DNA of 64,000 bases. Source: Corallococcus sp. AB018 (GTDB lineage: Bacteria > Myxococcota > Myxococcia > Myxococcales > Myxococcaceae). Below are positions 31,162 through 50,383 of the stretch, piece after piece; position 1 is the first letter of the stretch; each line of letters begins with the position of its first letter. The stretch is from contig NZ_RAWR01000021.1 in NCBI RefSeq assembly GCF_003986945.1, positions 1 through 64,000 of the forward strand, written 5' to 3'. Under the pieces are notes generated by a model, which ran no database searches, was not told the DNA's origin, and saw only the letters and a program-made list of their open reading frames with translations. Position numbers and translations under genes: made by a program.

Positions 31162-31310
31162 CCCCTGCCGTCCCCACCCGCGTACCCAAGCTGTACCCAA
31201 GATGAACGGACGCGGGTGGACCTTTACGGACTCGCGGTCCACCCCGCGCCAGAGGGAAACGGGCCACCCCTCAATCCTCCCGGGCACCTCGCGGATCGGT
31301 GTGGCGGGGC

Positions 31311-34878: not shown

Positions 34879-35505
34879 TTCCGCCAGGCCCGGGGCAGGT
34901 GGGCACGAGAGTGGAGCCAGTCCTTGCCCCCCCCTACCCTCGCGGTCGGACTGAGCTGAGCCTTCAGAATCCTGCCGAGCAGCCTCAGCGTCCGCAGCAG
35001 CGGCTCCTTCGACTCGTCCTGGTGCGTCTTCTGAGCGGGCGTGCACTTCCGGGTCGCGTCAACCGGCTCCTCCAGGCCCACGTAGGCGCACGCGAAGCGC
35101 TCCGGTGAGAGGAACTCGCCCAGCCACCGTCGCTCCTCGCGCGGAAACCAGGCGGCGAAGAGGCCCCGCATCTTCACGGGCTCCCTCGCTCCATCCTTGA
35201 AGGGACTCATGAAAGAAGGCACGAGCCTGACCGAGCAATTGCCGTTCCAGCCAGCGGCAGCTCAATCCGGGCCTTCGAGTTCCGCTCGTCCGTTTCGGGG
35301 ACGGCCCCTCATTTCGACCCTGGACAGCCGAGACGGGCGACCCTCTCGAGGGAGCGAGCCCTCCTCGATGGACTCTCAATCCGAGACAGCCTGACGTCCC
35401 AGCATGAGACAGCAGGGACAATCAGCCGGCGGTGAGGCCGTGAAGCATGGAGCACGATACCTGCATGGAGGCGCAGGCAGCAGGAAGCACGTGGGACACA
35501 TGTGA

Positions 35506-36696
35506 ATGCGCAAGCCGGTGATTCGCAAGACACTCTCCGAGGAACTGTTCTTCGTCCGCGGCATGAGCCTGATGCTCGTGGTGCTGGTCCATGTGATCGG
35601 CGTGGAGCCCTTCCAGGGAGTGCGCAAGCTCTTCTCCCCGGAGCGAGCGGAGCTCCGGTTCGCCTCGGAGTTCATCCACAGCTTCAACATGGCGGTGATG
35701 ATCATCGGTTCGGGCGTGGCTGTGTCACTCTTCGGCGCGCCGGACAGGTCCTTCCGGGAGTTCGCGCACAAGAAGCTGCGCAAGCTCGTCGTCCCGATGT
35801 TGGTGTGGGCGCCCGTCTTCCTCATTGCCCATGAGCTCACCCAGGCGCGCCCGCGAACACCTGGCGGATGGCTGGCGCTGCTGGGCCGGTTCCCCGCCGC
35901 CTGGTTCCCTCCGTACGCCATCTTCTGGTTCATTCACGCCCTGGTGGGCTGTACCTGTCTGGCGTGGGTGTATCAGCGCATCGTGCCCGCCCGGTACAAT
36001 TGGAACGGACTGAGCTACCTGGCACTGTCCTGGGTGTCTTATGCCGCTGTCGAGTTCCTGGAATCTCCGATGTCTGACATTGGGATGAGATACCTCCGCT
36101 TCATCCTCTTCTGGAACTGCCTCTTCGGTCTGGGAATGAGCCTGTCCCCCTGGCTGGCGCTGGCGCGCACCCGGCTGTCCCAGTTGCCTCTGGCGCTCCA
36201 GGGACTGGTGCCCTCGGGGTTCCTGGGGCTGCTGGTCTCTTTCCATGTCTCGGGGCTCGCGGAGGGGCATCTGGATCCGCGCCTGCTCACGGGGCCGCTG
36301 GGCTTCTGCCTGCAATTCACCCTGGCCTTCTTCCTCCTGGGTGTTGCCCGGAGCCTGGGTGCGACGTGGAAGGGGTTGGCGAGGTGGATTGTCTACCTGG
36401 GCTCGATCAGCATGCCGCTCTACCTCTTCCACATCTATTTCGTGTCCGGAGTGAGGTTGGCTTTGGGGAAGGTGCTGCCAGGAGCGCCGCTCGCGCTGCA
36501 CCTGGCGCTGGGCGTGTTCGGAGGGCTGATGGGGCCCCTGGGCCTCTACCTCCTCCTGGAGAGGAATCGGGCCTTCCGCTGGAGCATCGGCCTGCGTGGT
36601 GTCCCTTTGGACACGCCCGAACTCGGCGCGAATGAGTCCCCTGGCACCCGGCCACCTCGGGTGGAGGCATCGACCATGAAAGGGGCCGACGTATGA
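35506..36696 (+). CDS. Acyltransferase family 3 membrane protein (OafA/YrhL-like O-acyltransferase)
   Basis: Ten-plus TM segments. N-terminal FFVRGMSLMLVVLVH motif typical of Acyl_transf_3. Confidence 0.7.
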   Translation: MRKPVIRKTLSEELFFVRGMSLMLVVLVHVIGVEPFQGVRKLFSPERAELRFASEFIHSFNMAVMIIGSGVAVSLFGAPDRSFREFAHKKLRKLVVPMLVWAPVFLIAHELTQARPRTPGGWLALLGRFPAAWFPPYAIFWFIHALVGCTCLAWVYQRIVPARYNWNGLSYLALSWVSYAAVEFLESPMSDIGMRYLRFILFWNCLFGLGMSLSPWLALARTRLSQLPLALQGLVPSGFLGLLVSFHVSGLAEGHLDPRLLTGPLGFCLQFTLAFFLLGVARSLGATWKGLARWIVYLGSISMPLYLFHIYFVSGVRLALGKVLPGAPLALHLALGVFGGLMGPLGLYLLLERNRAFRWSIGLRGVPLDTPELGANESPGTRPPRVEASTMKGADV

Positions 36697-36819
36697 ACCC
36701 AAATGAAGTGTTGACCATTCGCCAAAATGTTTGTGTTTCAGAGCGGGACGGCCATGCTGGCTGGCTACACCAAAGTTCATGGAGGCCCCCTCTGAGCGCC
36801 TCCATTCCCTGGAGTTGTC

Positions 36820-39800
36820 ATGGACGTGATGAGAGCCAGCAGGGTCCTGCTGCTGGGATTGGGCTTTGTCGCAGCAGGCTGTAGCAGCAAGCCACCGGAA
36901 GAGAAGACGCTGGCCCACAGCGCTTCGCCGTTGGTGGTGGAGGGGTGGACCGAGGCCGCGCCCATGGCGGAGGCTCGCAAGTACCACGCGGGCGTGGTGC
37001 TGCCTTCCGGCAAGGTGCTGGTGACGGGCGGCTACAACGCCAGCGGGTATCTGTCCTCCTCCACCCTCTTCGACCCCGCTACTGGCGCGTGGACAGCGGC
37101 CGCCTCCATGCCGGAGGCGCGGCAGATCCACGCCATGACGCCGCTGCCTTCGGGCAAGGTGCTCGTGGTTGGCGGAGAGAACGCGACGGGCCGCCTGGCT
37201 TCCGCGGTGGTGTATTCCCCGGACACCAATACCTGGGCCTCCGCTGGGAGCTTTGCCTCGGGCGTGGCACGGGCTTCCCTGACGGCGACGCTGTTGCCTT
37301 CGGGCAAGGTGCTGGTGGCGGGCGGTGGCAACTCCGGCGGCCCCAAGTTCACTGTGGATGTGTATGAGCCGGTGGCGGGAACCTGGAGTGTCGGTCCGAA
37401 TCTGGGAGCGGCGCGGCGCGACCATACGGCGACGCTGCTGACGACCGGGCAGGTGCTGGTGGCAGGCGGCGTCGGGGGCGCGAGCCTGGCGACGGCGGAG
37501 TTGTACAACCCGTCAAGCAATACGTGGGCTGCGACGGGAAGTCTGGCGACGGCGCGCTACAACCACACGGCGACGCTGCTGCCTTCGGGCAAGGTGCTGG
37601 TGGTGGGTGGCCGCAACAGCACCGGGCTGCTGGCGACAGCGGAGGAATACGACCCGGGCACCGGGCAGTGGAGCGCGACGGGCGCGCTGGGCTCGGCGAG
37701 GGAGCTGCACTCGGCCACCCTGCTGAGCACCGGCAAGGTGCTGGTAACGGGCGGCATGTATGGCAGCGCAGCAACAGCCGCACTGGCGAGCTCGGAGGTG
37801 TACGACCCCGTCACCCGGCAGTGGAGCGCGGCGACGCCGATGACCGGTGCGCGGTATTCGTATGTGGCGGTGTCGCTGGCGACGCAGGCCAAGGTGTTGG
37901 TGGTGGGCGGTATTGGCGCCACCGGCGCGAGCCTGAAGACGGCGGAGGTGTACGGGTACGACGCCTGTGCTGGGGTGACGTGCAACAGCGCCCCGGGGGC
38001 CTGCTACGAGGCGGCGGGGACGTGCAGCAATGGCGTGTGCAGCTACGCGCTGAAGGCAGCTGGGGCCACCTGCGACGACGGGGATGCGTGCACCGGGACG
38101 GACGTATGCAACGGCGCGGGCGTGTGCGCGGGAAGCGCCACCCAGTGCGACAGTCCTCCGGGGCAGTGCTATGCGGCGGCGGGGGCATGCAGCGACGGGA
38201 CGTGCTCCTATTCGTACAAGGAAGCCGGTGACGCGTGTGATGACGGGGATGCGTGCACGGTGGATGAGACGTGCAACGGAGCGGGCGGGTGCGCGGGCAC
38301 GCCGGTGACTTGCAGCAGCCCTCCGAGCCAGTGCTTCGAGGCGGCGGGAACGTGCAGTGAGGGCGCGTGCTCCTATGCGCCGAAGGCGGCGGGCACTGCC
38401 TGTGATGACGGCAATGGCGGCACCATCAACGATGTGTGCAGCGGAGCGGGCGTCTGCGCGGGCGTGCCGGCCTGCACGACGCCGCCGGATGCCTGCCACG
38501 CCTCACCGGGCACCTACTCCAACGGAGCGTGCACCTACCCGCCGAAGGCCGCGGGCACCCTCTGCGATGATGGCAACGCCTGCACGACGGGCGATGTCTG
38601 CAACGGTGCGGGCACGTGCGGTGGTGCGGCCCTGAGCTGCAACAGCCCTCCCAGCCAGTGCCACCAGGCCGCCGGCACCTGCTCCAACGGTGCCTGCAGC
38701 TATGCACCGAAGTCCTCGGGTGCGAGCTGCGATGACGGCAACGCGTGCACGACGGGAGACGTCTGCAACGGTGCCGGCACCTGCGGCGGCTCGGCCCTGA
38801 GCTGTAACAGCCCGCCCAGCCAGTGCTACGAGGCCGCGGGCACCTGCTCCAACGGCACCTGCAGCTACGTGCCGAAAGCCTCGGGGGCCAGCTGCAATGA
38901 CGGCAACGCGTGCACGACCGGTGACGTGTGCAACGGCTCCGGCACTTGCGGTGGCTCGGCGCTGAGCTGCAACAGCCCTCCCAGCCAGTGCTACGAGGCG
39001 GCGGGAACCTGCTCCAACGGCACCTGCAGCTACGTGCCGAAGGCTTCGGGTGCCAGCTGCAATGACGGCAACGCGTGCACGACCGGTGATGTGTGCAATG
39101 GCTCCGGCACCTGCGGTGGCTCGGCGCTGAGCTGCAACAGCCCGCCCAATCAGTGCTACCAGTCCGCCGGCACTTGCTCCAACGGCACCTGTTCCTACGT
39201 GCCGAAGGCTTCGGGTGCCAGCTGCGATGACAGCAACGCGTGCACCACGGGAGACGTCTGCAACGGTGCTGGCGGCTGCGGCGGCACGGCGCTGAGTTGC
39301 AGCACCGCGAGCACCAATTACTGCAGCGGAAATGACGTCCGGAAGACCACCGGCACCGGCACCTGCAGCGGCGGCTCCTGCCAGTCCACCGACGTCCTCG
39401 TGCAGTCGTGCCAGACCGGCACCAGCGGCCCCTTCTGCAGCGGCAATGGTGCCTACGAGACCGTCTATGGCGGCTGCTCCAACGGTGCCTGCACGTCCAC
39501 CCAGCAGCTCATCGAGTCGTGCTCCACCTCCAGCAGCAACTACTGCAGCGGCAACACCGTCCGGAAGCTGACCGGCACCGGTTGCAGCGGCGGCAACTGC
39601 GGCTCCACCGACACCCTCGTCCAGACGTGCTCCACCTCGAGCAGCAACTACTGCAATGGCAATGACGTGCGGAAGACCACCGGCACCGGTTGCAGCGACG
39701 GCTCCTGTGGCTCCACCGACACGCTCGTCCAGACGTGCCCGACGGGCACCAGCAGCCCCTTCTGCAGCGGCAGCAGCGTCTATCGGACCCTCAATGCCGG

Positions 39801-41046
39801 CTGCAGCGGAGGCGCCTGCGCGTCCAGCCAGCAACTCGTCGAGACGTGCTCCACCTCCAGCAGCAACTACTGCAGTGGCAACACCGTCCGGAAGACCACT
39901 GGCACCGGCACTTGCAGCGGCGGCTCCTGCGGCTCCACCGACACCCTGGTCCAGACGTGCTCCACCGCGAGCACCAACTACTGCAGCGGCAATGACTTGC
40001 GGCGCACCAGTGGCACGGGCACCTGCAGCGGCGGTTCCTGCGGCTCCACGGACACCCTCGTGCAGACGTGCCAGACCGGCACCAGTGGCCCCTTCTGCAG
40101 TGGCAACGGTGCCTACCGGACCGTCTATGGCGGCTGCTCCAGCGGTGCCTGCACGTCCTCCCAGCAGCTCATCGAGTCGTGCTCCACCTCCAGCAGCAAC
40201 TACTGCAGCGGCAACACCGTCCGGAAGGTCACCGGCACCGGCTGCAGCGGTGGCTCCTGCGGCTCGACTGATACCGCCGTCCAGACGTGCTCCACCGCGA
40301 GCAGCAACTACTGCAGCGGCAACACCGTTCGCAGGACCACCGGCACCGGATGCAGCGACGGCTCCTGTGGCTCCACCGATACGCTCGTCCAGACGTGCAC
40401 GACCGGCACCAGCAGCCCCTTCTGCAGCGGCAACAGCGTCTACCAGACCGTCAATGGCGGCTGCAGCGGAGGTTCCTGCTCATCCAGCCAGCAGTTCGTC
40501 CAGACGTGCTCCACCGCGAGCACCAACTACTGCAGCGGCAATGATGTGCGGAAGACCACCGGCACCGGTTGCAGCGGCGGCTCCTGTGGCTCCTCCGATT
40601 CCTTCGTCCAGACGTGCTCCACCGCGAGCACGACCTACTGCAGCGGCAACAACGTTCGCAGGACGACCGGCACCGGTTGCAGCAGTGGCAACTGCGGCTC
40701 CACCGATACCCTGGTCCAGACGTGCTCCACCGCGAGCACGACCTACTGCAGCGGCAACACCGTCCGCAGGACGACCGGCACCGGTTGCAGCGGCAGCGGC
40801 ACCTGCGGCTCCACCGACACCCTGGTCCAGACGTGCAACAGCCAATTTGAGATGTGCAGCGATGGCGCCTGCGTCTCCAACGATGGGCTCTGGCAGTTGG
40901 TGGGTTCGTGCAGCACGAGGTGCCCATCCAATGAATGCTGGCCCCCCGTCAACCCGGAAGGTCAGGACTGCAGGCCGGTGGGTTCTACCTGCTTCGCTTA
41001 CGGCGGTCCCACCGGTCGTAACGAATGGAAGTGCGCGCCGTACTGA
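36820..41046 (+). CDS. Giant lipoprotein with Kelch beta-propeller, myxo-type Cys-rich repeats and a 36-aa four-Cys tandem repeat (paralogue 1)
   Basis: Lipobox FVAAGCSS. Seven Kelch motifs (GKVLVTGG/ARxxH). About 10 CNSPPSQCYEAAGTCSNGTCSY...CDDGNACTTGDVCNGAGTCGG repeats (Myxococcus cysteine-rich repeat type). About 20 copies of a four-Cys unit in two alternating subtypes, the most regular being CSTSSSNYCSGNTVRKTTGTGCSGGSCGSTDTLVQT. Confidence 0.8.
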   Translation: MDVMRASRVLLLGLGFVAAGCSSKPPEEKTLAHSASPLVVEGWTEAAPMAEARKYHAGVVLPSGKVLVTGGYNASGYLSSSTLFDPATGAWTAAASMPEARQIHAMTPLPSGKVLVVGGENATGRLASAVVYSPDTNTWASAGSFASGVARASLTATLLPSGKVLVAGGGNSGGPKFTVDVYEPVAGTWSVGPNLGAARRDHTATLLTTGQVLVAGGVGGASLATAELYNPSSNTWAATGSLATARYNHTATLLPSGKVLVVGGRNSTGLLATAEEYDPGTGQWSATGALGSARELHSATLLSTGKVLVTGGMYGSAATAALASSEVYDPVTRQWSAATPMTGARYSYVAVSLATQAKVLVVGGIGATGASLKTAEVYGYDACAGVTCNSAPGACYEAAGTCSNGVCSYALKAAGATCDDGDACTGTDVCNGAGVCAGSATQCDSPPGQCYAAAGACSDGTCSYSYKEAGDACDDGDACTVDETCNGAGGCAGTPVTCSSPPSQCFEAAGTCSEGACSYAPKAAGTACDDGNGGTINDVCSGAGVCAGVPACTTPPDACHASPGTYSNGACTYPPKAAGTLCDDGNACTTGDVCNGAGTCGGAALSCNSPPSQCHQAAGTCSNGACSYAPKSSGASCDDGNACTTGDVCNGAGTCGGSALSCNSPPSQCYEAAGTCSNGTCSYVPKASGASCNDGNACTTGDVCNGSGTCGGSALSCNSPPSQCYEAAGTCSNGTCSYVPKASGASCNDGNACTTGDVCNGSGTCGGSALSCNSPPNQCYQSAGTCSNGTCSYVPKASGASCDDSNACTTGDVCNGAGGCGGTALSCSTASTNYCSGNDVRKTTGTGTCSGGSCQSTDVLVQSCQTGTSGPFCSGNGAYETVYGGCSNGACTSTQQLIESCSTSSSNYCSGNTVRKLTGTGCSGGNCGSTDTLVQTCSTSSSNYCNGNDVRKTTGTGCSDGSCGSTDTLVQTCPTGTSSPFCSGSSVYRTLNAGCSGGACASSQQLVETCSTSSSNYCSGNTVRKTTGTGTCSGGSCGSTDTLVQTCSTASTNYCSGNDLRRTSGTGTCSGGSCGSTDTLVQTCQTGTSGPFCSGNGAYRTVYGGCSSGACTSSQQLIESCSTSSSNYCSGNTVRKVTGTGCSGGSCGSTDTAVQTCSTASSNYCSGNTVRRTTGTGCSDGSCGSTDTLVQTCTTGTSSPFCSGNSVYQTVNGGCSGGSCSSSQQFVQTCSTASTNYCSGNDVRKTTGTGCSGGSCGSSDSFVQTCSTASTTYCSGNNVRRTTGTGCSSGNCGSTDTLVQTCSTASTTYCSGNTVRRTTGTGCSGSGTCGSTDTLVQTCNSQFEMCSDGACVSNDGLWQLVGSCSTRCPSNECWPPVNPEGQDCRPVGSTCFAYGGPTGRNEWKCAPY

Positions 41047-41677
41047 GTCGAAGTGTGAGTAGGAATCAACCCAGTCACACCCGTTGAATTCAGCGTCGAA
41101 GCCTCCGTGCGTCCCAACGCACGGAGGCTTTGGCTCGACGGGGTGTACACCCGGAAAACCCAAGGGCGAAGGCGCCAGCAGGCCGAAGAAGACATCCGTC
41201 AGCCTGTCTCATCGCGTGATGCGTTATCGGTATTGCTCCGCGCGTCATTGATCCAGCAGCCAGCCCAAGCGCATACATTGACGGGGCTCGCTCGTGGGGT
41301 CGGTGGGACCCTCAGGCCGCTATCACCCTCGAAGACATCCAGCCTTCCGATGGAACATGGGTCGATCCGGTGTCCGTATCGACACGCCCAGACCCTCGCC
41401 GGAAACGAATGCTCGGGCACGCCGTCGGCCAGACCGAGTTGCTGGCTCTCGACGCGAATGAGTCAGTCAACACCCCCGGGCGCTCAATGAATACTCACGG
41501 GTAGCTGTCCCACGACCACGAATGGGGCTGCCGTATGCACCCAAACAGAGCGCCATCCCATGAATCATTGATCATGCCCCAGGGGGCATAGGCATGCGGG
41601 TTCTCTGTCTGGCATGCTGGCTGGCCAAAGCAAACCCTTGGAGGCCTCTCTGAGCGCCTCCATTCCCTGGAGTTATC

Positions 41678-44600
41678 ATGAATGTGTTGAGAGCCAGCAG
41701 GGCTCTGCTGTTGGGATTTGTCTGCGTACTCGTAAGCTGTAGCAGCAAACCACCGGAAGAGAAGACACCGGCCCAGAGCGCTTCCCCATTGGTGGTGGAA
41801 GGGTGGACCGAGACCGCGCCGATGGCGGAGGCCCGCAAGTACCACGCGAGCGTGGTGCTGCCTTCCGGCAAGGTGCTGGTGACGGGCGGCTACAACGCCA
41901 GCGGGTATCTGTCCTCCTCCACCCTCTTCGACCCCGCTACTGGCGCGTGGACAGCGGCCGCCTCCATGCCGGAGGCGCGGCAGATCCACGCCATGACGCC
42001 GCTGCCTTCGGGCAAGGTGCTCGTGGTTGGCGGAGAGAACGCGACGGGCCGTCTGGCTTCCACGGCGGTGTATTCCCCGGACACCAATACCTGGGCCTCC
42101 GCGGGGAGCTTCGCGACGGGCGTGGCACGGGCTTCCCTGACGGCGACGCTGTTGCCTTCGGGCAAGGTGCTGGTGGCGGGCGGGGGCAACTCCGGCGGCC
42201 CCAAGCTCAGTGTGGATGTGTATGAGCCAGTGGCGGGAACCTGGAGCGTGGGTCCGAATCTGGGAGCGGCGCGGCGCGACCATACGGCGACGCTGCTGAC
42301 GACCGGGCAGGTGCTGGTGGCGGGCGGCGTCGGGGGCGCGAGCCTGGCGACGGCGGAAGTGTATGACCCGACGAGCAATACCTGGACGGCGACGGGAAGC
42401 CTGGCGGCGGCGCGCTACAACCACACGGCGACGCTGCTGCCTTCGGGCAAGGTGCTGGTGGTGGGTGGCCGTAACAGCAGCGGGCTGCTGGCGACAGCGG
42501 AGGAATACGACCCGGGCACCGGGCAGTGGAGCGCGACGGGCGCGCTGGGCACGGCCAGGGAGCTGCACTCGGCAACCCTGCTGAGCACCGGCAAGGTGCT
42601 GGTGACTGGAGGCATGTATGGCAGCGCAGCGACGGCCGCACTGGCGAGCTCGGAGGTGTACGACCCGGCCACCCGGCAGTGGAGCGCGGCGGGCCCCATG
42701 GCCGGTGCGAGGTATTCGCATGTGGCGGTGTCGCTGGCGACGCAGGCCAAGGTGTTGGTGGCGGGCGGTATTGGCGCCACCGGCGCGAGCCTGAAGACGG
42801 CGGAGGTGTACGGGTACGACGCATGTGCTGGGGTGACGTGCAACAGCGCACCGAGTCAGTGCTACGAGGCGGCGGGGACGTGCAGCAATGGCGTGTGCAG
42901 CTACGCGCTGAAGGCGGCTGGGACCACCTGCGATGACGGGGATGCGTGCACCGAGACGGACGTATGCAACGGCGCGGGCGTGTGCGCGGGAAGAGCCACC
43001 CAGTGCGGCAGTCCTCCGGGGCAGTGCTACGCGGCGGCGGGCACATGCAGCGACGGGACGTGCTCCTATTCGTACAAGGCGGCCGGTGACGCGTGTGATG
43101 ACGGGGATGCGTGCACGGTGGATGAGACGTGCAACGGGGCGGGCGGGTGCGCGGGCACACCGGTGGCTTGCAGCAGCCCTCCGAGCCAGTGCTTCGAGGC
43201 GGCGGGAACGTGCAGCAGTGGGGCGTGCTCCTATGCGCCGAAGGCGGCGGGCACGGCCTGTGATGACGGCAATGGCGGCACCATCAACGACGTGTGCAGC
43301 GGAGCGGGCGTCTGCGCGGGCGTCCCGGCCTGCACAACGCCGCCGGACGCCTGCCATGGCTCCCCGGGCACGTACTCCAACGGAGCGTGCACCTACCCGC
43401 CGAAGGCCGCGGGCACCCTCTGCGATGATGGCAACGCTTGCACGACGGGCGACGTCTGCAACGGTGCTGGCACCTGTGGCGGCTCGGCGCTGAGCTGCAA
43501 CAGCCCGCCCAATCAGTGCTACCAGTCCGCCGGCACTTGCTCCAACGGCACCTGTTCCTACGTGCCGAAGGCCTCGGGCGCCAGCTGCGATGACAGCAAC
43601 ACATGCACCACGGGAGACGTCTGCAACGGTGCTGGCGGCTGCGGCGGCACGGCGCTGAGTTGCAGCACCGCGAGCACCAATTACTGCAGCGGAAATGACG
43701 TCCGGAAGACCACCGGCACCGGCACCTGCAGCGGTGGATCCTGCCAGTCCACTGACGTCCTCGTGCAGTCGTGCCAGACCGGCACCAGCGGCCCCTTCTG
43801 CAGCGGAAATGGTGCCTACGAGACCGTCTACGGCGGCTGCTCCAACGGCGCCTGCACGTCCACCCAGCAGCTCATCGAGTCGTGCTCCACCTCCAGCAGC
43901 AACTACTGCAGCGGCAACACCGTCCGGAAGCTGACCGGCACCGGTTGCAGCGGCGGCAACTGCGGCTCCACCGACACCCTCGTCCAGACGTGCTCCACCT
44001 CGAGCAGCAACTACTGCAACGGCAATGACGTGCGGAAGACCACCGGCACCGGCTGCAGCGACGGCTCCTGTGGCTCCACCGACACGCTCGTCCAGACGTG
44101 CCCGACGGGCACCAGCAGCCCCTTCTGCAGCGGCAGCAGCGTCTACCGGACCCTCAATGCCGGCTGCAGCGGAGGCTCCTGCTCGTCCAGCCAGCAACTC
44201 GTCGAAACGTGCTCCACCTCCAGCAGCAACTACTGCAGTGGCAACACCGTCCGGAAGACCACCGGCACCGGCACTTGCAGCGGCGGCTCCTGTGGCTCCA
44301 CGGACACCCTCGTCCAGACGTGCTCCACCGCGAGCACCAACTACTGCAGCGGCAATGACTTGCGGCGCACCAGTGGCACGGGCACCTGTAGCGGCGGCTC
44401 CTGCGGCTCCACGGACACCCTCGTGCAGACGTGCCAGACCGGCACCAGCGGTCCCTACTGCAGCGGCAACGGTGCCTACCAGACCGTCTACGGCGGCTGC
44501 TCCAACGGCGCCTGCACGTCCACCCCGCAACTCATCGAGTCGTGCTCCACCTCGAGCAGCAACTACTGCAGCGGCAACACCGTCCGGAAGGTCACCGGCA

Positions 44601-45406
44601 CCGGCTGCAGCGGCGGCTCCTGTGGCTCCACCGACACCGCCGTCCAGACCTGCTCTACTTCGAGCAGCGACTCTTGCAGCGGCAACACCGTCCGGAGGAC
44701 CACGGGCACCGGTTGCAGCGGTGGCTCCTGTGGCGTCACCATCACGGATATCATGAATTGCCCGACCGGCACGGGCAGCCCCTTCTGCAGCGGCAACAGC
44801 GTCTACCAGACCGTCAATGGCGGCTGCAGCGGAGGCTCCTGCGCGTCCAGCCAGCAGTTCGTCCAGACGTGCCCGACCAGCACCGGCAGCCCCTACTGCG
44901 TCGGTAACACCGTCTACCAGGTCGTCAATGGCGGCTGCAGCGGAGGCTCCTGCGCGTCCAGCCCGCAGCCCGTCACGACATGCTCCCCGGTGGACAGCTA
45001 CTCCTGCAGCGGAAACACCGTCCAGAGGACCACCAGCGGCTCCTGCAGTGGTGGCAGTTGCGGTGGCAGCACCACCACCAACGTCCAGACGTGCTCCCCG
45101 GTGGACAGCTACTCCTGCAACGGCAACACCGTCCAGAAGACCACCACCGGCCTCTGCAGCGGCAGCGGCTGTACTGGCACCTCCACCACCAACGTCCAGA
45201 CCTGTGGCAGCGGACAGACGTGCAGCAATGGAACGTGCGTCGCCTCCGGCGGGAAATGGACCAACACAGGGACGTGCACCTTTGGGGCCCCGTCCTGCCA
45301 GAACTACAACTGCACCAACTTCTACCCAGATACGGCCTGCTCACCGTTGGGCGCTACTTGCACCATCTCCACAGGCTCCGGAATCTACAGGTGGATCTGC
45401 CTGTAG
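41678..45406 (+). CDS. Giant Kelch/Cys-repeat lipoprotein (paralogue 2, tandem duplicate with diverged C-terminus)
   Basis: Near-identical N-terminal 1000 aa to the preceding gene, including duplicated 5' leader. Lipobox VLVSCSS. Distinct C-terminal CSPVDSYSCSGNTVQRTT repeats. Confidence 0.8.
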   Translation: MNVLRASRALLLGFVCVLVSCSSKPPEEKTPAQSASPLVVEGWTETAPMAEARKYHASVVLPSGKVLVTGGYNASGYLSSSTLFDPATGAWTAAASMPEARQIHAMTPLPSGKVLVVGGENATGRLASTAVYSPDTNTWASAGSFATGVARASLTATLLPSGKVLVAGGGNSGGPKLSVDVYEPVAGTWSVGPNLGAARRDHTATLLTTGQVLVAGGVGGASLATAEVYDPTSNTWTATGSLAAARYNHTATLLPSGKVLVVGGRNSSGLLATAEEYDPGTGQWSATGALGTARELHSATLLSTGKVLVTGGMYGSAATAALASSEVYDPATRQWSAAGPMAGARYSHVAVSLATQAKVLVAGGIGATGASLKTAEVYGYDACAGVTCNSAPSQCYEAAGTCSNGVCSYALKAAGTTCDDGDACTETDVCNGAGVCAGRATQCGSPPGQCYAAAGTCSDGTCSYSYKAAGDACDDGDACTVDETCNGAGGCAGTPVACSSPPSQCFEAAGTCSSGACSYAPKAAGTACDDGNGGTINDVCSGAGVCAGVPACTTPPDACHGSPGTYSNGACTYPPKAAGTLCDDGNACTTGDVCNGAGTCGGSALSCNSPPNQCYQSAGTCSNGTCSYVPKASGASCDDSNTCTTGDVCNGAGGCGGTALSCSTASTNYCSGNDVRKTTGTGTCSGGSCQSTDVLVQSCQTGTSGPFCSGNGAYETVYGGCSNGACTSTQQLIESCSTSSSNYCSGNTVRKLTGTGCSGGNCGSTDTLVQTCSTSSSNYCNGNDVRKTTGTGCSDGSCGSTDTLVQTCPTGTSSPFCSGSSVYRTLNAGCSGGSCSSSQQLVETCSTSSSNYCSGNTVRKTTGTGTCSGGSCGSTDTLVQTCSTASTNYCSGNDLRRTSGTGTCSGGSCGSTDTLVQTCQTGTSGPYCSGNGAYQTVYGGCSNGACTSTPQLIESCSTSSSNYCSGNTVRKVTGTGCSGGSCGSTDTAVQTCSTSSSDSCSGNTVRRTTGTGCSGGSCGVTITDIMNCPTGTGSPFCSGNSVYQTVNGGCSGGSCASSQQFVQTCPTSTGSPYCVGNTVYQVVNGGCSGGSCASSPQPVTTCSPVDSYSCSGNTVQRTTSGSCSGGSCGGSTTTNVQTCSPVDSYSCNGNTVQKTTTGLCSGSGCTGTSTTNVQTCGSGQTCSNGTCVASGGKWTNTGTCTFGAPSCQNYNCTNFYPDTACSPLGATCTISTGSGIYRWICL

Positions 45407-45484
45407 GAGCCGCCCTACTCCTGGCTGCATCCCGCGCTGACGGCTCCGTGCTCCAACACGGAGCCGTCACCCGGACGGGGCGCT

Positions 45485-46924
45485 TCACTCGCGTTTGAGT
45501 GACACCCTCGCCATCCGGGAGAGAGTCTTCGTTGGGAGCGCCGTCACCGACGGACGGGCCGGGTACACGGCCGCCAGTGTTCCCAAGAGGATGTGCAGCA
45601 GGAAGAGCAGTGGCGTCTGCCGGTACTCCCACTCGGAGAAGCTCTGGGCGAAGGCTCCCAGCAGGCCGAAGAAGACTCCGATTCCGAAGCGTGAGCGCAG
45701 CGCGGGCGAACGCTTGAGGAAGAAGCTGGCTCCCATCTTGAACCAGCTCAGCCAGACCGCCGCGAAGAGGATGACCCCGGGCCAGCCTGTCTCTCCCAGC
45801 GTGATGAGATACAGGCTGTGTCCCGGAGGGGCCTGGGCCGCGTCCACGTTCGAGCCCGCCGGGATGGGGCCCTTGGGCGGTGCTTCCTCCGTGCCGGTGT
45901 AGGGGATGTAACCGAAGCCGATCATCCGGCCGTACTGGTTGGACACCGCGTAGGACCAGTTGTTCAGCCCGACTCCGAAGACATGGTCCTCCTGCATCAA
46001 CCGGGCGAGGTGGACGTAGGCGCCGCGCCCTTCGTGCTCCTTGCCCCCGAACTCACTGGAGAGTCCTCCTTCGGAATCGAAGCGGGCCTGGAAGGCCGGT
46101 GCCAGCTTGAGGCCCACGGGAATGGCCGCGAGCAACAGCAGGAACGCCACCCCTGCTGTCTTCGGCGTTGGCTTCAACGCCCCACACGTCAAGGCCACCG
46201 CCACCAGGAGCAGTCCTAGCGAAACCAGTCCCGCTCGCGACACGGTGCACAGCACCGAGATGGAGCCCAGGAAGGTGGCCACGCCGCACAGACGTTTGAG
46301 GCGTGGCCCTACGTCCGAGAGCGCGACCGCGAGCAGCACCGGGACCGCGATGAGGTTGAACATCGACACGGTGTTCGGGTGGAACAGCGTCCCGTCCGCT
46401 CGGCTGTGCCCCAACACGACCCGGGAGTGGATCACCCAGAAGCACTCGTAGATGACCGTGATGGCCAGCGCCGCGACGAGGCGCCGGAGGTCCCGCTCGT
46501 TCTTCACGCAGGCCGCGATCGTCACGTACACCATGACGGCGCGGAACATCTTCGACAGCTCGAACAGGCCGAACAACCGGGGCTCGGAGAGCAGGACGTT
46601 CACCGCGTTGTAGGCGAGGAACACTCCCATGATGGCCAGCCCGTGGGGCCACTCGCGCCGCTGGCCTGGCTTGCGATGCCGCAGCTCGTCCACCCACAGG
46701 AAGATCCACAGGAAGTCGAGCCAGCTGAACTCGAAGCCACGCGTGGTGCCGCGGTACCAGGCTCGGCTGAAGAAGTTGAGGGACACCGCCGAGGCGTGGG
46801 TGGTGCCCCAGACGAGCAGGATGACGCAGAGGTGCTTCAGGCGTTCGGACCTCCCGACGGCGTGAATCCCGGCGGGAATGACGACCGCGCACAGGCCCAG
46901 GAAGAGGAGGAACTTCGTCTCCAT
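45485..46924 (-). CDS. O-antigen ligase / Wzy-type polysaccharide polymerase family membrane protein
   Basis: About 10 TM segments. Wzy_C-like motif TVSRAGLVSLGLL and periplasmic loop. Start at METKFLLFLG (46924). Confidence 0.7.
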   Translation of the reverse strand: METKFLLFLGLCAVVIPAGIHAVGRSERLKHLCVILLVWGTTHASAVSLNFFSRAWYRGTTRGFEFSWLDFLWIFLWVDELRHRKPGQRREWPHGLAIMGVFLAYNAVNVLLSEPRLFGLFELSKMFRAVMVYVTIAACVKNERDLRRLVAALAITVIYECFWVIHSRVVLGHSRADGTLFHPNTVSMFNLIAVPVLLAVALSDVGPRLKRLCGVATFLGSISVLCTVSRAGLVSLGLLLVAVALTCGALKPTPKTAGVAFLLLLAAIPVGLKLAPAFQARFDSEGGLSSEFGGKEHEGRGAYVHLARLMQEDHVFGVGLNNWSYAVSNQYGRMIGFGYIPYTGTEEAPPKGPIPAGSNVDAAQAPPGHSLYLITLGETGWPGVILFAAVWLSWFKMGASFFLKRSPALRSRFGIGVFFGLLGAFAQSFSEWEYRQTPLLFLLHILLGTLAAVYPARPSVTALPTKTLSRMARVSLKRE

Positions 46925-47757
46925 CAGCGCGCCGCGATGTCGATGCGCCGGTAGAGCTCGTCTTCCTCGAAGAAGCACGGGAGGAACTCGCCTCCGTCCA
47001 CGTCGTGCAGCGTGTGCCAGCGCGGCTCCGCGTCTCGGCGCTCCATCTGCGAGGCGTGCAGCGCCAGCGCGGCGCGCTTCTGCTCCACCACGCCCCGGAG
47101 GGACACCTTCGTCCGGAAGTCCTTGAGCATCCGCAGTCCCAGCCTCGTCGACACCGTCCCCGCCAGCACCGACCGCTGCTGCCTTCGTGTCCTTCCGAAG
47201 CCCACCATGGGCCAGTGCCTCCAGGCCCATACCGCGTACTCGAACACCGTGACGGGCCGCCCTACCCTTGCCACTGCCTCATGCACGAGGTGGTTCGTGC
47301 TCACGTGGTCCGCGTGTTCGCCCCGAGCGTACGGGACGAAGAGCTGCTCCGGCCGGTGCCTCCGCAGCAGGTCCTCCACCCTGGCCACGGCCGCCTCCCG
47401 GTTCGCGTCCAGCGCGCCGTCGGGAAAGCCCAGCAGGAAGACCTCCGCCTCCTCCACGCCCAGAACCTTCGCCGCGCCCAGCGCCTCTTGCGCCCTCTGC
47501 GCCTTCAGTTCGTCGCGTGAGATCAGGTGCGCGTGTGAGCTGGCGCCGTCCGTCAGGAGGACGATCCGCACCGCCGCTCCCGCGCGCCGCTTCTGCAGGA
47601 TGGCGCCCCCACACCCCAGCGTCTCGTCATCCGGGTGCGGCGCGAACACCATCGCGGGACACCGGAGCTCGTCCTCGTTGAACGTGCGGGCTCGCCGTCC
47701 CAGCGCCAGCCGCTGCAAGCGACGAAGTCCCCTCCTCACCGGGCTTCCGTCCATCAT
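46924..47757 (-). CDS. PIG-L / LmbE-family N-acetylglucosaminyl deacetylase
   Basis: VFAPHPDDETLGCGG motif and HADH downstream motif. The start at 47757 overlaps the upstream gene stop. Confidence 0.7.
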   Translation of the reverse strand: MMDGSPVRRGLRRLQRLALGRRARTFNEDELRCPAMVFAPHPDDETLGCGGAILQKRRAGAAVRIVLLTDGASSHAHLISRDELKAQRAQEALGAAKVLGVEEAEVFLLGFPDGALDANREAAVARVEDLLRRHRPEQLFVPYARGEHADHVSTNHLVHEAVARVGRPVTVFEYAVWAWRHWPMVGFGRTRRQQRSVLAGTVSTRLGLRMLKDFRTKVSLRGVVEQKRAALALHASQMERRDAEPRWHTLHDVDGGEFLPCFFEEDELYRRIDIAAR

Positions 47758-49007: not shown

Positions 49008-49176
49008 ATGCACGGGCAAGACGCAATTCATGGACCAGACACTCCGCGCCCCACCCGCGGCGCCCCTCCTTCCCCATTCCCATTCCGAGACGTCTCAATC
49101 CGAGACATCCGGGCGGTGCATGGGCAAGGAGTCAGCTCGCGGGGAGGCATGTCCCCTGCAAGCTGAAGGGCCTGCC

Positions 49177-50383
49177 CGTGAGAGTCACCGTCCTTACCAA
49201 CCTGTACCCGCCCGACGTCCTCGGCGGCTACGAGCTGCTCGCACGAGATGTGGTGGAGGGGTTGGAGCGGCGTGGCCACGAGGTCGACGTCCTCACCAGC
49301 GGCGATGGCTCCGAGAACGGGCGCGTGCTGCGGTCCCTGTGCCTGGCTCGCCGCTTCGGCCGGCCCGCGGGACGGGATCGCCTCCGTCACTTCGCGGCTG
49401 GTGTGCGGAACACGGCGGCGGTGCGCCGCTACTTGAAGGACCATGGCAGGCCGGATGCGGTGCTGGTCATGAGCCTGCGGAGACTGGGGCTCGCGCCGCT
49501 GCGGGTGCTCCACGAGGCAGGCGTCCCCGCGATCGTCACGGTGAACGACGACTGGCCGGTGGCGTTCAGCGTGGGTCGCGACGCGCGGCCCTGGGCTCGG
49601 CTGGGCAGCGTGCTCGACTCGCTGCTGGTGCCTTCACGAACCTGGACCGGCATCCAGCCCGCCGGGGTCGCGTGGCTTTCGGACGCGGTCCGGCGCACGT
49701 GCCTCACGGCGGGTGTGCCGCTGGACTTCGGTGTCGTGCTGCCGCAGGGCGTGGACCTGTCGCGCTTCACCCCTCGTCCCTTCCGGCCCATGCGCCCGGA
49801 GCCTCGGCTGCTCTTCGTCGGCCGGCTCCATCCGAGCAAGGCCCCCGATGCGGCCATCGACACCCTGGCGGCCTTGGAGAAGCGCGGCGTCAAGGCCACC
49901 CTCACGCTCGCGGGCGCGGCGGACGATCCGGCGTATCTCGCGTCCTTGCGGCAACGGGCGCGGGTGCTGCGGGTAGACGGACGCGTGGCATGGGCCGGGC
50001 AACTTCCCCGCGAGCAGTTGCTTCCGCTGTATCAGGATGCGGATGCGCTCCTGTTCGCGTCGAAGCTGGAGCACGAGGGCCAGGGCCTCACGTATCTGGA
50101 GGCCATGGCCTGTGGCCTGCCGGTGGCGGCGTCCCCCAGCGGCGGTGCCCGTGACTTCCTTGATCGGCACGACGCTTCGCTGCTGGTGAAGGCATGCACG
50201 GGTGAGGCCTTCGCCGAGGCGCTGGCGGCCCTCCACCGGGACGCGGCGGCGCAGGAGGTGCTCGTCCAGCGGGCGCTCGACATCGTGCGAGAACACGCGT
50301 CACTCGACGCCTACGTTCGCGGCATCGAGGAACTGCTACTCGATGCGGCTCAAGCTCACTGCCGCCGCAGCACCACCCGCTGA
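49177..50383 (+). CDS. Glycosyltransferase family 4 (GTG start inferred)
   Basis: VTVLTNLYPPDVLGGYE N-terminus. EX7E-like region LLFASKLEHEGQGLTYLEAMACGLPV. No in-frame ATG before the conserved N-terminus, so the GTG at 49177 was chosen. Confidence 0.7.

What the first reader, a model, noticed from the sequence alone, without database searches (positions are those of the whole stretch)
36700..45450. Tandemly duplicated giant lipoproteins combining a Kelch beta-propeller, myxo-type Cys-rich repeats and an undescribed 36-aa four-cysteine tandem repeat
Two adjacent genes (1408 and 1242 aa), including about 100 bp of duplicated 5' leader, are near-identical for about 1000 codons and then diverge. 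Each encodes a lipoprotein, a 7-bladed Kelch propeller, about 10 C-x-D-G-x-x-C-T-x-D-x-C type repeats, and then about 14-20 copies of a four-Cys unit in two alternating subtypes (CSTSSSNYCSGNTVRKTTGTGCSGGSCGSTDTLVQT and CQTGTSGPFCSGNGAYETVYGGCSNGACTSTQQLIES). Paralogue 2 ends with a different CSPVDSYSC-type repeat. Such long near-identical tandem coding repeats are substrates for recombination-driven length and antigenic variation, and a hazard for assembly collapse. The four-Cys repeat does not correspond to a family I can name.
Basis: seen in the sequence. Interest (0 to 1): 0.68.

Follow-up and report, generated by a model that had tools for sequence, protein, structure and literature searches.

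The report
Duplicated Kelch lipoproteins with cysteine-repeat stalks
Two neighbouring, recently duplicated genes of a myxobacterium encode very long, disulfide-rich, probably cell-surface lipoproteins; their long Ser/Thr-rich stalk is built from a rare 36-37-residue four-cysteine repeat that matches no described protein family, and the genes sit in a sugar-polymer biosynthesis locus whose flanking genes are conserved in two related genomes.

Summary
Two intact tandem genes (36820-41046, 1408 aa; 41678-45406, 1242 aa) each encode a lipobox, seven Kelch motifs, 55-aa eight-Cys "A" units (8 and 5 copies, not about 10), 14 four-Cys "B" units of 36-37 aa, and a roughly 70-aa Cys-rich cap. The B units follow an S-Q-S super-repeat of about 330 nt, not strict alternation.

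The copies are 93% identical in DNA over two collinear blocks and differ by three A units. dN/dS is 0.07-0.28. The last three B units and the cap are not orthologous. An assembly artefact is unlikely.

The B unit matches no Pfam, NCBIfam or PDB sequence. Only 18 of 1.84 billion representative proteins match its profile. AlphaFold models a three-stranded module (pLDDT 94.6) with no significant PDB fold match. It is weakly related to a wider, unannotated myxobacterial hairpin module and to TSR-like units in homologues.

The A units are not TIGR02232 repeats; the closest family is Dicty_CTDC, below threshold.

The flanking PMT_2, Wzy_C, PIG-L and GT4 genes are syntenic with Archangium gephyra.

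Best reading: outer-membrane-anchored rods with variable tips, linked to a surface glycan system. Function is inferred, not shown. This is a new repeat family of a known kind, of moderate interest.

The parts
36753..36819 (+). 5' leader of paralogue 1, duplicated upstream of paralogue 2. It includes GGAG 8 nt before the ATG.
   Evidence: Local alignment with 41613-41677, including a 27-nt exact block at 36790-36816.
36820..41046 (+). Paralogue 1 (P1), 1408 aa, 129 Cys.
   Evidence: ORF list; Pfam.
36820..36882 (+). P1 signal peptide with lipobox GFVAAG|C (Cys21). The mature N-terminus is CSSKPPEEK.
   Evidence: Read from the sequence against PROSITE PS51257. The lipobox Cys is conserved in homologues P0001, P0002, P0014, L001 and K3.
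36952..37965 (+). P1 Kelch beta-propeller (aa 45-382): seven Kelch motifs and no cysteine.
   Evidence: Pfam Kelch_4 E 1e-43 and Kelch_1 E 3e-38; motif segmentation; PDB KLHL/Keap1 propellers E 1e-33 to 1e-22.
37981..39297 (+). P1 A array: 8 units of 54-55 aa (aa 388-826), 8 Cys per unit, except that A3 and A4 each lack one Cys.
   Evidence: AF2 model of a unit pair, pLDDT 95.9. Dicty_CTDC below threshold.
39298..40833 (+). P1 B array: 14 four-Cys units of 36-37 aa (aa 827-1338), 38% Ser+Thr.
   Evidence: AF2 model of three units, pLDDT 94.6.
40834..41043 (+). P1 C-terminal Cys-rich cap (70 aa, 9 Cys), a divergent homologue of the P2 cap.
   Evidence: Alignment A5: 36% identity and 12 invariant columns.
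41095..41134 (+). GC-rich 18-bp hairpin followed by UUUGG; terminator-like, downstream of P1.
   Evidence: RNA fold -34.9 kcal/mol, z -4.9. Not listed by the consensus scan because the T run is short.
41613..41677 (+). Duplicated 5' leader of paralogue 2.
41678..45406 (+). Paralogue 2 (P2), 1242 aa, 106 Cys.
41678..41740 (+). P2 signal peptide with lipobox VLVS|C (Cys21).
   Evidence: Read from the sequence.
41810..42823 (+). P2 Kelch propeller (aa 45-382), 94% aa identity to P1.
42839..43660 (+). P2 A array: 5 units (aa 388-661). A1-A4 are orthologous to P1 A1-A4, and A5 to P1 A8.
43661..45202 (+). P2 B array: 14 units (aa 662-1175). B1-B9 and B11 are orthologous to P1, B10 has diverged, and B12-B14 are a different cassette that includes two CSPVDSYSC-type units.
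45203..45403 (+). P2 C-terminal Cys-rich cap (67 aa). It is 63% identical to the cap of the metagenomic fragment P0008.
45438..45469 (+). GC-rich 13-bp hairpin between the convergent P2 and Wzy_C genes, related in sequence to the hairpin after P1.
   Evidence: RNA fold z -5.0.
33070..35046 (-). PMT_2 (GT-C fold) glycosyltransferase, the conserved neighbour.
   Evidence: Pfam. 79% identical to the gene immediately upstream of P0002 in A. gephyra.
35506..36696 (+). Acyltransferase_3 family membrane protein immediately upstream of P1.
   Evidence: Pfam E 3e-21.
45485..50383 (.). Wzy_C (45485-47230, -), PIG-L deacetylase (46924-48024, -), GT4 (47754-49031, -) and GT4 (48863-50383, +): the start of a Wzy-type polysaccharide locus that runs on to a Wzz-like gene at 54983-56842.
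   Evidence: Pfam. 63-76% identity and shared neighbourhood with A. gephyra locus L083.

Best explanation
P1 and P2 are paralogous lipoproteins of an Archangiaceae-like myxobacterium, most likely anchored in the outer membrane and exposed on the cell surface. Each is a long, rigid rod stapled by disulfides.

The order of parts is: N-terminal lipid anchor, a seven-motif Kelch propeller close to the membrane, a stalk of A units (small disulfide knots) and B units (three-stranded beta modules, 38% Ser/Thr), and a small Cys-rich cap at the far end.

The conserved Kelch-plus-A scaffold carries interchangeable distal cassettes. In relatives these are B units, TSR-like units, TIGR02232 repeats, a Gly-rich domain, LCCL or Stig1-like caps. 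The distal end therefore probably sets binding specificity, while the stalk acts as a spacer that carries the tip through or beyond the surface polysaccharide layer made by the neighbouring Wzy-type locus.

Shown here: gene structure, the duplication, purifying selection, the repeat anatomy, the rarity and lack of annotation of the B unit, the confident predicted folds, and the synteny with glycan genes.

Inferred: lipidation, outer-membrane or surface location, rod shape, stalk and tip roles, and any link to the glycan pathway.
For: Architecture:
- Lipobox, Kelch, A units, B units and cap.
- After the lipobox Cys, P1 has 128 cysteines and P2 has 104. Both counts are even, so all could be paired.

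Sorting signals:
- The mature N-terminus CSSKPPEEK has Ser at +2 and Glu at +7. It therefore lacks both the +2 Lys inner-membrane signal and the +7 Ala matrix signal described for M. xanthus (PMC3222651).

Predicted structure:
- B unit: a short strand plus an 11-residue beta hairpin, pLDDT 94.6.
- A unit: a strand-poor disulfide knot, pLDDT 95.9.

Both genes appear functional:
- dN/dS is 0.07-0.28.
- Each gene has its own leader and its own terminator-like hairpin.

Distal cassettes vary on a conserved scaffold:
- L001 (Hyalangium MAG) has TSR-like units plus a Stig1-like end.
- A. gephyra P0001 and P0002 mix B units with TSR-like units.
- K1 has a Gly-rich domain and K3 has TIGR02232 repeats.
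- P0003 has LCCL. P0014 has DUF4214.
- P0005 has a different head (pAdhesive_15) with the same B units and cap.
- P1 and P2 differ mainly in B12-B14 and the cap.

Genomic context:
- The flanking PMT_2, Wzy_C, PIG-L and two GT4 genes are 63-79% identical to those of A. gephyra locus L083 and lie in the same neighbourhood. Part of this neighbourhood is kept in L001.

Precedent:
- For TraA, Cys-rich tandem repeats were proposed to act as a rigid stalk that presents a domain on the cell surface (PMC3325183).
Against: No experimental data exist for any family member, and literature searches found nothing.

The orientation is opposite to TraA: here the large globular domain sits next to the anchor, not at the tip.

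Surface exposure of lipoproteins is not predictable from sequence, so a periplasmic location is not excluded.

Synteny with glycan genes is seen only within one family (Archangium, Hyalangium) and could simply reflect shared ancestry. P0001 (L004) and P0003 (L081) lie in other contexts.

The cap has no detectable homologues beyond four proteins.
Confidence: 0.5

Rival explanations
1. The proteins are dedicated substrates of a protein O-glycosylation pathway encoded around them. GT4 enzymes would build a lipid-linked glycan. The GT-C enzyme (PMT_2) or the Wzy_C-domain protein, acting as an O-oligosaccharyltransferase, would then transfer it to the Ser/Thr-rich B rod, giving a glycosylated surface fibril.
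For: - The B arrays are 37-38% Ser+Thr.
- PMT_2 is the closest conserved neighbour: 79% identity, and it lies directly upstream of P0002 in A. gephyra.
- A Wzy_C gene is convergent with P2, and its best NCBIfam hit, below threshold, is 'putative O-glycosylation ligase' (E 9e-8).
- From general knowledge: PMT-family enzymes O-mannosylate secreted proteins and lipoproteins in actinobacteria, and PglL/PilO O-oligosaccharyltransferases carry Wzy_C.
Against: - The locus also holds a Wzz-like gene, several GTs and a phosphodiesterase, which is what an ordinary Wzy-dependent polysaccharide locus looks like.
- In the model the Ser/Thr residues lie in ordered beta strands, not in the disordered linkers that are typical acceptor sites.
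- Homologues with B units occur without these neighbours (L004).
- There is no glycoproteomic evidence.
Confidence: 0.18
2. They are polymorphic cell-cell or prey recognition receptors, analogous to TraA. The variable C-terminal cassette would mediate homotypic or target-specific binding, and tandem duplication plus cassette exchange would diversify specificity.
For: - The 3' end is swapped between the paralogues, while B1-B9 stay 96-100% identical in nt.
- The P2 cap is closer to caps from other organisms (63% to P0008) than to the P1 cap (36%).
- The family shows many alternative C-terminal modules.
- A homologue of the window ORF 28786-30192 lies beside P0003, overlapping a gene annotated as an AHH nuclease.
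Against: - No population data were available. The window genome and close relatives are absent from the collections.
- dN/dS is below 0.3 wherever it can be measured.
- There is no PA14 domain and no MYXO-CTERM tag.
- The cap is tiny (about 67-70 aa).
Confidence: 0.17
3. They are periplasmic or export-associated lipoproteins of the polysaccharide machinery, in which the Kelch propeller binds the nascent glycan (as in NanM-like sugar-binding propellers) and the repeats serve as a scaffold.
For: - Conserved position in a Wzy-type locus.
- Weak Kelch similarity to NanM/YjhT mutarotases (E 1e-6, far below the cutoffs).
Against: - About 950 residues of extended disulfide repeats (22 modules in P1) are hard to fit into a periplasm. 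This is an inference from 11-residue strands per B unit.
- The distal modules are highly variable, which is unexpected for a core machinery part.
- The Kelch domain is closest to protein-binding KLHL propellers.
Confidence: 0.1
4. The two genes are an assembly artefact of a single repetitive gene.
For: Repeats and near-identical paralogues are classic causes of misassembly. No independent assembly of this genome could be found.
Against: - The copies differ at about 7% of nucleotides throughout, with mostly synonymous changes (dS 0.08-0.20).
- They have different signal peptides, different 3' cassettes and a unique 566-nt spacer with its own hairpin.
- The longest exact shared stretch is 202 nt.
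- The syntenic A. gephyra complete genome also holds several Kelch paralogues at this locus.
Confidence: 0.03

Closest known systems
Archangium gephyra 'kelch repeat-containing protein' P0001 and P0002 (strain SDU49, CP102578), and the Hyalangium sp. MAG protein on L001
   Same: They share the lipobox, the Kelch propeller, A units and a Cys-rich C-terminal array. P0002 lies in the syntenic PMT_2 / GT4 / PIG-L / Wzy_C locus. P0001 and P0002 contain bona fide B units.
   Different: - They have only 1 A unit and 4-7 B units, interleaved with 55-aa TSR-like units, and they end in a Stig1-like motif.
- L001 has no B units at all.
- None of these genomes shows the tandem near-identical pair.
- Identity in the B region is 45-48%.
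TraA (M. xanthus outer-membrane-exchange receptor): PA14 head, TIGR04201 Cys-rich repeat stalk and MYXO-CTERM tag (PMC3325183)
   Same: It is a myxobacterial cell-surface protein in which tandem Cys-rich repeats are proposed to form a rigid stalk, and specificity resides in a variable domain.
   Different: - Its polarity is opposite: a C-terminal anchor and an N-terminal head.
- It has no Kelch domain.
- No NCBIfam repeat model matches the window's A or B units.
- The window proteins have no MYXO-CTERM tag.
Pfam PF00526 Dicty_CTDC (C-x-D-x-N-x-C-T-x-D-x-C repeat)
   Same: The second half of each A unit (CDDGNACTTGDVCNGAGTC) fits the motif. Several A-unit homologues carry PF00526 in precomputed annotation.
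   Different: - The window proteins score only 15.8-17.6 bits against a cutoff of 27.
- The A unit is a 55-aa composite with an extra N-terminal CxxPPxxC...GxCxxGxCxY hairpin half.
Unannotated 55-59-aa myxobacterial units of the type CDxPPxxFCxGx(9-11)GxCxxGxCxY...CVDPC (for example P0010, P0006 and P0039, the last with a MYXO-CTERM tag)
   Same: Their first 36 residues have the same Cys spacing and the same GN / GxCxxGxC signature as the B unit. hhalign gives 83% probability, E 9e-6. An HMM built only from such units recognises the B units and the A-unit N-terminal halves of P1 and P2: 20-23 matched stretches per protein, most of them individually weak.
   Different: - B units lack the trailing CxxxxxxCxxxxxxCVDPC mini-knot, except for a remnant after the last unit.
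- B units lack the PP motif.
- B units are Ser/Thr-rich and form long pure arrays.
Thrombospondin type-1 repeat (TSP1/TSR)
   Same: - It is a small, three-stranded, disulfide-stapled extracellular module that forms rods.
- In homologues, B units alternate with units carrying the motifs WSxC, CGGxGTQxRxV and C-x-x-G-x-C. Those units weakly hit THSD7A TSR (E 0.058) and TSP1_ADAMTS (E 0.012).
- The B profile aligns to their strands B-C (hhalign 71%).
   Different: - B units have no Trp/Arg layer and only 4 Cys.
- They give no Pfam TSP hit.
Fibronectin type I modules and SasG-type single-layer beta-sheet rods (structural analogues only)

Membership tests
Kelch repeat beta-propeller (Pfam clan; PF01344, PF13418) | Tandem 44-56-aa Kelch motifs with a GG doublet and conserved Y/W, scoring above the Pfam gathering thresholds. 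| tested here: met
   Kelch_4 scores 147-153 bits and Kelch_1 scores 130-135 bits, against cutoffs of about 20. Seven motifs were segmented. PDB Kelch propellers match at E down to 2e-33. The blade number (7) is inferred from the motif count and was not modelled.
Bacterial lipoprotein (PROSITE PS51257 / signal peptidase II substrates) | A basic N-region, a hydrophobic core, and a lipobox [LIVMFWSTAG]2-[LIVMFYSTAGCQ]-[AGS]-C with the Cys at residues 15-35. | tested here: met
   MDVMRASRVLLLGLGFVAAG|C and MNVLRASRALLLGFVCVLVS|C fit the pattern on reading. The Cys is conserved in homologues. Actual lipidation is not testable here.
TIGR02232 myxo_disulf_rpt ('Myxococcus cysteine-rich repeat') | A match to the TIGR02232 HMM (CGDG...E.CDDGN...GDGC), cutoff 20.8 bits. 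| tested here: not met
   There was no NCBIfam hit for the A or B regions at E<=10. As a positive control, A. gephyra K3 at the syntenic locus scores 70 bits, E 1e-19.
TIGR04201 (TraA-type Myxococcales Cys-rich repeat) | A match to the TIGR04201 HMM. | tested here: inconclusive
   No NCBIfam hit at E<=10. I had no positive control to show that this model is in the library copy.
PF00526 Dicty_CTDC | Score of at least 27 bits to the 24-residue C-x-D-x-N-x-C-T-x-D-x-C profile. | tested here: not met
   Scores are 15.8-17.6 bits, E 0.003-0.012. This is a motif-level resemblance only. Some homologues pass the threshold in precomputed annotation.
Thrombospondin type-1 repeat (PF00090, PF19030) | The WxxW / RxR layered core, six Cys in the TSR pattern, and an HMM match. 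| tested here: not met
   B units have no Trp, have 4 Cys, and give no Pfam hit at E<=10. No TSR appears in the fold searches. The only link is a 71% hhalign match to TSR-like units of homologues.
Radical copper oxidases (galactose oxidase / GlxA) | A Tyr-Cys cross-linked cofactor and Cu ligands in a Kelch propeller, with an equivalog score of at least 800. | tested here: not met
   The score is 70-74 bits against a cutoff of 800. The propeller (aa 45-380) contains no cysteine at all.
MYXO-CTERM sorted proteins (TIGR03901) | A C-terminal Cys-containing motif, a TM helix and an Arg-rich tail. | tested here: not met
   No hit was found in P1 or P2. Both proteins end in the Cys-rich cap. As a positive control, P0039 scores 20.5 bits.

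The most novel reading that the evidence does not exclude
The B array is a previously undescribed protein module: a four-Cys, three-stranded beta unit that stacks into a long Ser/Thr-coated rod. It serves as the acceptor scaffold of a dedicated myxobacterial protein O-glycosylation system encoded by the conserved neighbours (the PMT_2 GT-C enzyme, the Wzy_C ligase-like protein, the GT4s and PIG-L). The product would be a glycosylated surface fibril whose exchangeable tip mediates recognition. A corollary is that the B unit is a bacterial, Trp-less derivative of TSR-like modules that are native to Archangiaceae.
Probability: 0.15. Interest if true: 0.65.

Novelty: new variant of a known kind. 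Interest (0 to 1): 0.4.

Why it matters
Cysteine-rich repeat stalks are a hallmark of myxobacterial surface proteins such as TraA, which is involved in kin recognition, yet most such repeats have no family model or structure.

This locus gives a clean, long, well-conserved array of a repeat that is absent from Pfam, NCBIfam and the PDB. The repeat is very rare in public data (18 representative proteins of 1.84 billion) and is modelled with high confidence as a simple three-stranded module. That is enough to define a new domain family and to design constructs for structure determination.

The family also shows how a conserved anchor-plus-propeller scaffold exchanges distal cassettes. Its conserved position beside a GT-C enzyme and a Wzy-type glycan locus offers a testable link between surface lipoproteins and glycan or glycoprotein biosynthesis in myxobacteria.

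It does not overturn any current view.

Tried and rejected
**Known-family assignment of the B unit.**
- Pfam and NCBIfam at E<=10 gave nothing, apart from a spurious RsrA anti-sigma match (30 bits against a cutoff of 62.5).
- The B profile against PDB sequences gave only PARP2 noise, E 0.35.
- The AFDB50 fold library was not available.

**Finding the same genome or close relatives.**
- The genome-contig scan gave at best 57% identity.
- An exact-protein look-up of P2 found nothing on record.
- The metagenome scan found no relatives.
- Copy number among strains therefore could not be compared.

**Homologues of the cap.** A profile search returned nothing at E<=1e-3. Pfam gave only noise for the caps.

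**Radical copper oxidase reading of the Kelch domain.** Rejected, because the propeller has no Cys.

**Promoter scan.** No sigma-70-like site was found in the leaders, which is uninformative for myxobacteria.

**The 'rusticalin' cysteine-rich repeat papers.** They concern an unrelated eukaryotic repeat.

**Disulfide topology and rod length.** Model coordinates are not exposed by the tools, so only secondary structure was used.

**Direct B-to-A homology.** hhalign gave only 5.5% probability. The two unit types are linked only through the P0010-type hairpin units.

Full report
**1. Observation**

The window is about 64-75% G+C. It holds two same-strand ORFs of exactly the reported sizes: P1 at 36820..41046 (1408 aa) and P2 at 41678..45406 (1242 aa). 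Each protein has the following parts.

- **Signal peptide with lipobox.** The sequences are GFVAAG|C in P1 and VLVS|C in P2, with Cys21 in both. Both fit PROSITE PS51257 when read from the sequence.
- **Kelch propeller.** Pfam Kelch_4 and Kelch_1 score E 1e-38 to 1e-45. There are six full motifs, a seventh partial motif and an N-terminal closing strand. The propeller contains no cysteine.
- **A units.** These are 54-55 aa with eight Cys, for example CNSPPSQCYEAAGTCSNGTCSYVPKASGASCDDGNACTTGDVCNGAGTCGGSALS. P1 has 8 and P2 has 5.
- **B units.** These are 36-37 aa with four Cys, exactly 14 in each protein.
- **Cap.** A 67-70-aa Cys-rich domain ends each protein.

The two B subtypes do not strictly alternate. 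The "S" type is CSTSSSNYCSGNTVRKTTGTGCSGGSCGSTDTLVQT and the "Q" type is CQTGTSGPFCSGNGAYETVYGGCSNGACTSTQQLIES. They follow an S-Q-S super-repeat, and Tandem Repeats Finder sees it as a 327-330-nt period.

Local HMMs of the A and B units hit only these two ORFs in the window, at E 1e-123 to 1e-197.

**2. The duplication**

- blastn gives two collinear blocks: 36753-38801 against 41613-43659 (92.7% identity) and 39002-40509 against 43365-44872 (93.5%). P1 carries three extra A units.
- The shared leader is 67 nt, not about 100 nt.
- Nei-Gojobori estimates are as follows:

| Region | dS | dN/dS |
|---|---|---|
| Kelch | 0.11 | 0.26 |
| A1-A4 | 0.20 | 0.16 |
| B1-B9 | 0.13 | 0.07 |

  Both copies are therefore kept by purifying selection.
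- A unit-by-unit matrix shows that B1-B9 and B11 are positional orthologues (90-100% nt identity). B10 has diverged (77%). B12-B14 are not orthologous (59-68%).
- The P2 cap is 63% identical to the cap of the metagenomic fragment P0008, but only 36% identical to the P1 cap. The 3' end therefore looks like an exchanged cassette rather than gradual divergence.
- Each gene is followed by its own strong GC hairpin: 41095-41134 (-34.9 kcal/mol, z -4.9) and 45438-45469 (z -5.0).
- The 566-nt spacer upstream of the second leader is unique in the window.
- The longest exact stretch shared by the two genes is 202 nt. Within a gene it is at most 68 nt.

These points argue strongly against an assembly artefact. 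They also make the assembly hazard modest.

**3. What the B unit is**

*Family and structure searches.*
- No Pfam or NCBIfam family matches the B arrays at E<=10, apart from a spurious sub-threshold RsrA hit.
- A 36-sequence unit profile (A1) finds nothing in PDB sequences.
- The word-indexed search of 5.8 billion proteins returned four hits.
- The exhaustive hmmsearch of 1.84 billion representatives returned 18 proteins at E<=1e-3, and only five at E<=1e-10.

*What those hits are.*
- Archangium gephyra Kelch proteins.
- P0005, which has a pAdhesive_15 domain and disintegrin-like repeats, followed by A units, B units and a P2-like cap.
- The fragments P0008 and P0013, which carry CSPVDSYAC-type units and the cap.
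- P0014, which has a lipobox, Kelch, one A unit, B-like units and DUF4214.
- Three proteins of clearly different composition (P0004, P0011, P0015). Their units read C..D.YYCSG....R.Y.CSGGSC.Y. In P0004 and P0015 these are followed by Ig and PKD domains.
- P0006 and P0010, whose 55-59-aa units begin with a B-like 36-residue part.

*Profile-profile comparisons.*
- The B unit links to the P0010-type hairpin unit at 83% probability, E 9e-6.
- It links to the 55-aa TSR-like units that alternate with B units in A. gephyra at 71% probability, E 3.7e-5.
- Those TSR-like units hit the THSD7A TSR (E 0.058). The TSR-like array of L001 hits TSP1_ADAMTS (E 0.012). Both hits are below threshold.
- An HMM built only from non-window hairpin units recognises the B units and the N-terminal halves of the A units in P1 and P2. 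It reports 20-23 matched stretches per protein, most of them individually weak.

*Conclusion for this section.* The B unit is an undescribed, lineage-restricted variant of a wider unannotated class of bacterial Cys-rich hairpin modules. It is not an EGF, DSL or TSR domain.

**4. What the A unit is**

- The second half of each A unit (CDDGNACTTGDVCNGAGTC) resembles Pfam Dicty_CTDC, but scores only 15.8-17.6 bits against a cutoff of 27.
- It is not the TIGR02232 "Myxococcus cysteine-rich repeat". The A region gives no NCBIfam hit at E<=10. A paralogue at the syntenic A. gephyra locus (K3) scores 70 bits with that model, which serves as a positive control.
- A units are widespread. More than 460 loci were found, mainly in Myxococcota and also in other phyla. 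Database hits are annotated as hypothetical proteins, some with PF00526 in precomputed annotation.
- A3 lacks the Cys of "NACT" and the next unit, A4, lacks the Cys of "GTC". This holds in both paralogues and in the Hyalangium orthologue. It suggests a disulfide between neighbouring units that was lost as a pair.

**5. Context and relatives**

The window genome is not in the collections.

*The closest scaffold.* The best match is a Hyalangium sp. MAG (L001). It has the same lipobox, Kelch and four A units, followed by about ten TSR-like units and a Stig1-like end. It has no B units.

*The locus around P1 and P2.*

| Position | Gene | Coordinates (strand) |
|---|---|---|
| Upstream | PMT_2 (GT-C) | 33070-35046 (-) |
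| Upstream | Acyl_transf_3 | 35506-36696 (+) |
| Downstream | Wzy_C | 45485-47230 (-) |
| Downstream | PIG-L | 46924-48024 (-) |
| Downstream | GT4 | 47754-49031 (-) |
| Downstream | GT4 | 48863-50383 (+) |
| Downstream | GT2 | 50356-51618 (-) |
| Downstream | GT4 | 52451-53923 (-) |
| Downstream | phosphodiesterase | 53623-54846 (-) |
| Downstream | Wzz-like | 54983-56842 (+) |

*The syntenic locus in A. gephyra.* The P0002 locus of A. gephyra SDU49 (L083) shares this neighbourhood. Identities to the window genes are PMT_2 79%, Wzy_C 76%, GT4 71%, the second GT4 65% and PIG-L 63%. That locus holds three Kelch+A paralogues with different distal modules:
- a Gly-rich domain (K1);
- B units, TSR-like units and a Stig1-like end (P0002);
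- TIGR02232 repeats (K3).

L001 keeps a GT4 and the phosphodiesterase (72% identity) nearby.

*Limits of the context evidence.* Other family members, P0001 (L004) and P0003 (L081), lie elsewhere. The context signal is therefore real but confined to one family.

**6. Mechanism**

*Shown.* An N-terminal lipobox; an even number of cysteines after the lipobox Cys (128 in P1 and 104 in P2); confident beta-module models; a conserved scaffold with variable distal cassettes; purifying selection; and the glycan-locus neighbourhood.

*Inferred.*
- The proteins are lipidated and sorted to the outer membrane. The mature N-terminus CSSKPPEEK lacks both the +2 Lys inner-membrane signal and the +7 Ala matrix signal described for M. 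xanthus (PMC3222651).
- The 22 (P1) or 19 (P2) disulfide modules form an extended rod that is too long for the periplasm.
- The stalk holds the variable cap away from the cell, within or beyond the polysaccharide layer. This echoes the "rigid stalk" role proposed for the Cys-rich repeats of TraA (PMC3325183), but with opposite polarity.

*Confidence in each reading.*

| Reading | Confidence |
|---|---|
| Stalk with variable tip (best explanation) | about 0.5 |
| B rod, 38% Ser/Thr, is an O-glycosylation substrate of the neighbouring PMT_2 / Wzy_C system | 0.18 |
| TraA-like polymorphic recognition receptor | 0.17 |
| Periplasmic component of the polysaccharide machinery | 0.10 |
| Assembly artefact | 0.03 |

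**7. Novelty and score**

The proteins belong to a known kind: myxobacterial surface proteins with Cys-rich repeat stalks, and annotated "kelch repeat-containing" homologues exist. The B repeat, however, is a family with no model and no solved relative, it is very rare in public data, and it comes with a confident predicted fold. I rate it a new variant of a known kind, with interest 0.4.

Unequal exchange in the A array and cassette exchange at the 3' end are supported.

Noticed in passing
L001 484-4173 (Hyalangium sp. MAG NZ_DASPHO010000683.1); A. gephyra P0001, P0002 and P0003: Homologues carry about 55-aa repeats with the motifs WSxC, CGGxGTQxRxV and C-x-x-G-x-C, which look like thrombospondin type-1 repeats. 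Their best database matches are the THSD7A TSR (E 0.058) and Pfam TSP1_ADAMTS (E 0.012), both below threshold. This is a possible bacterial TSR-like family.
   Followed up: partly
window 38302-38631 (P1 A3-A4) and 43160-43489 (P2 A3-A4): A3 has lost the Cys of the 'NACT' motif (NGGT) and the following unit A4 has lost the Cys of 'GTC' (GTY). This holds in both paralogues and in the Hyalangium orthologue. It suggests that these two positions form a disulfide between neighbouring units, so the structural domain boundary would be shifted by half a unit.
   Followed up: partly
L083 5447-7642 (+), 10001-12676 (+) and 12806-15430 (-) (A. gephyra SDU49, CP102578 at about 1.44-1.46 Mb): The syntenic locus holds three Kelch+A paralogues with unrelated C-terminal modules: a Gly-rich domain; B and TSR-like repeats; and five genuine TIGR02232 repeats plus an unknown domain. 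This is modular diversification on one scaffold.
   Followed up: partly
window 28786-30192 (+) and 30391-31287 (-): Two ORFs with no Pfam hit have homologues (48% and 44% identity) immediately upstream of the Kelch gene P0003 on the ENA contig L081, where the overlapping called gene is annotated PF14412 AHH (a nuclease toxin domain). This may be a toxin/immunity-like pair travelling with the Kelch genes.
   Followed up: no
L082 131-4457 (Logan SRR23285958 contig): The non-myxobacterial protein P0004, which has B-like units followed by Ig and PKD domains, lies on the same strand directly after a radical SAM gene, an Rce1-like (CPBP) protease gene and two small ORFs.
   Followed up: no
window 41095-41134 and 45438-45469: The hairpins after the two paralogues share the core CTCCGTGC...CACGGAG, so the duplicated segment may originally have included the terminator. 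The consensus terminator scan missed both because the T tract is short.
   Followed up: partly
window 22937-27883: Upstream genes unrelated to the finding: a TPR + Zincin_1 metallopeptidase (22937-24010, +), a DUF3857 + transglutaminase-core protein (24337-26820, -) and a SAM methyltransferase (26915-27883, +).
   Followed up: no
window 10505-15940 (+) / 11312-14806 (-): Very long overlapping ORFs (1811 aa and 1164 aa) lie on opposite strands in this high-GC region. They were not examined, and at least one of them must be spurious.
   Followed up: no
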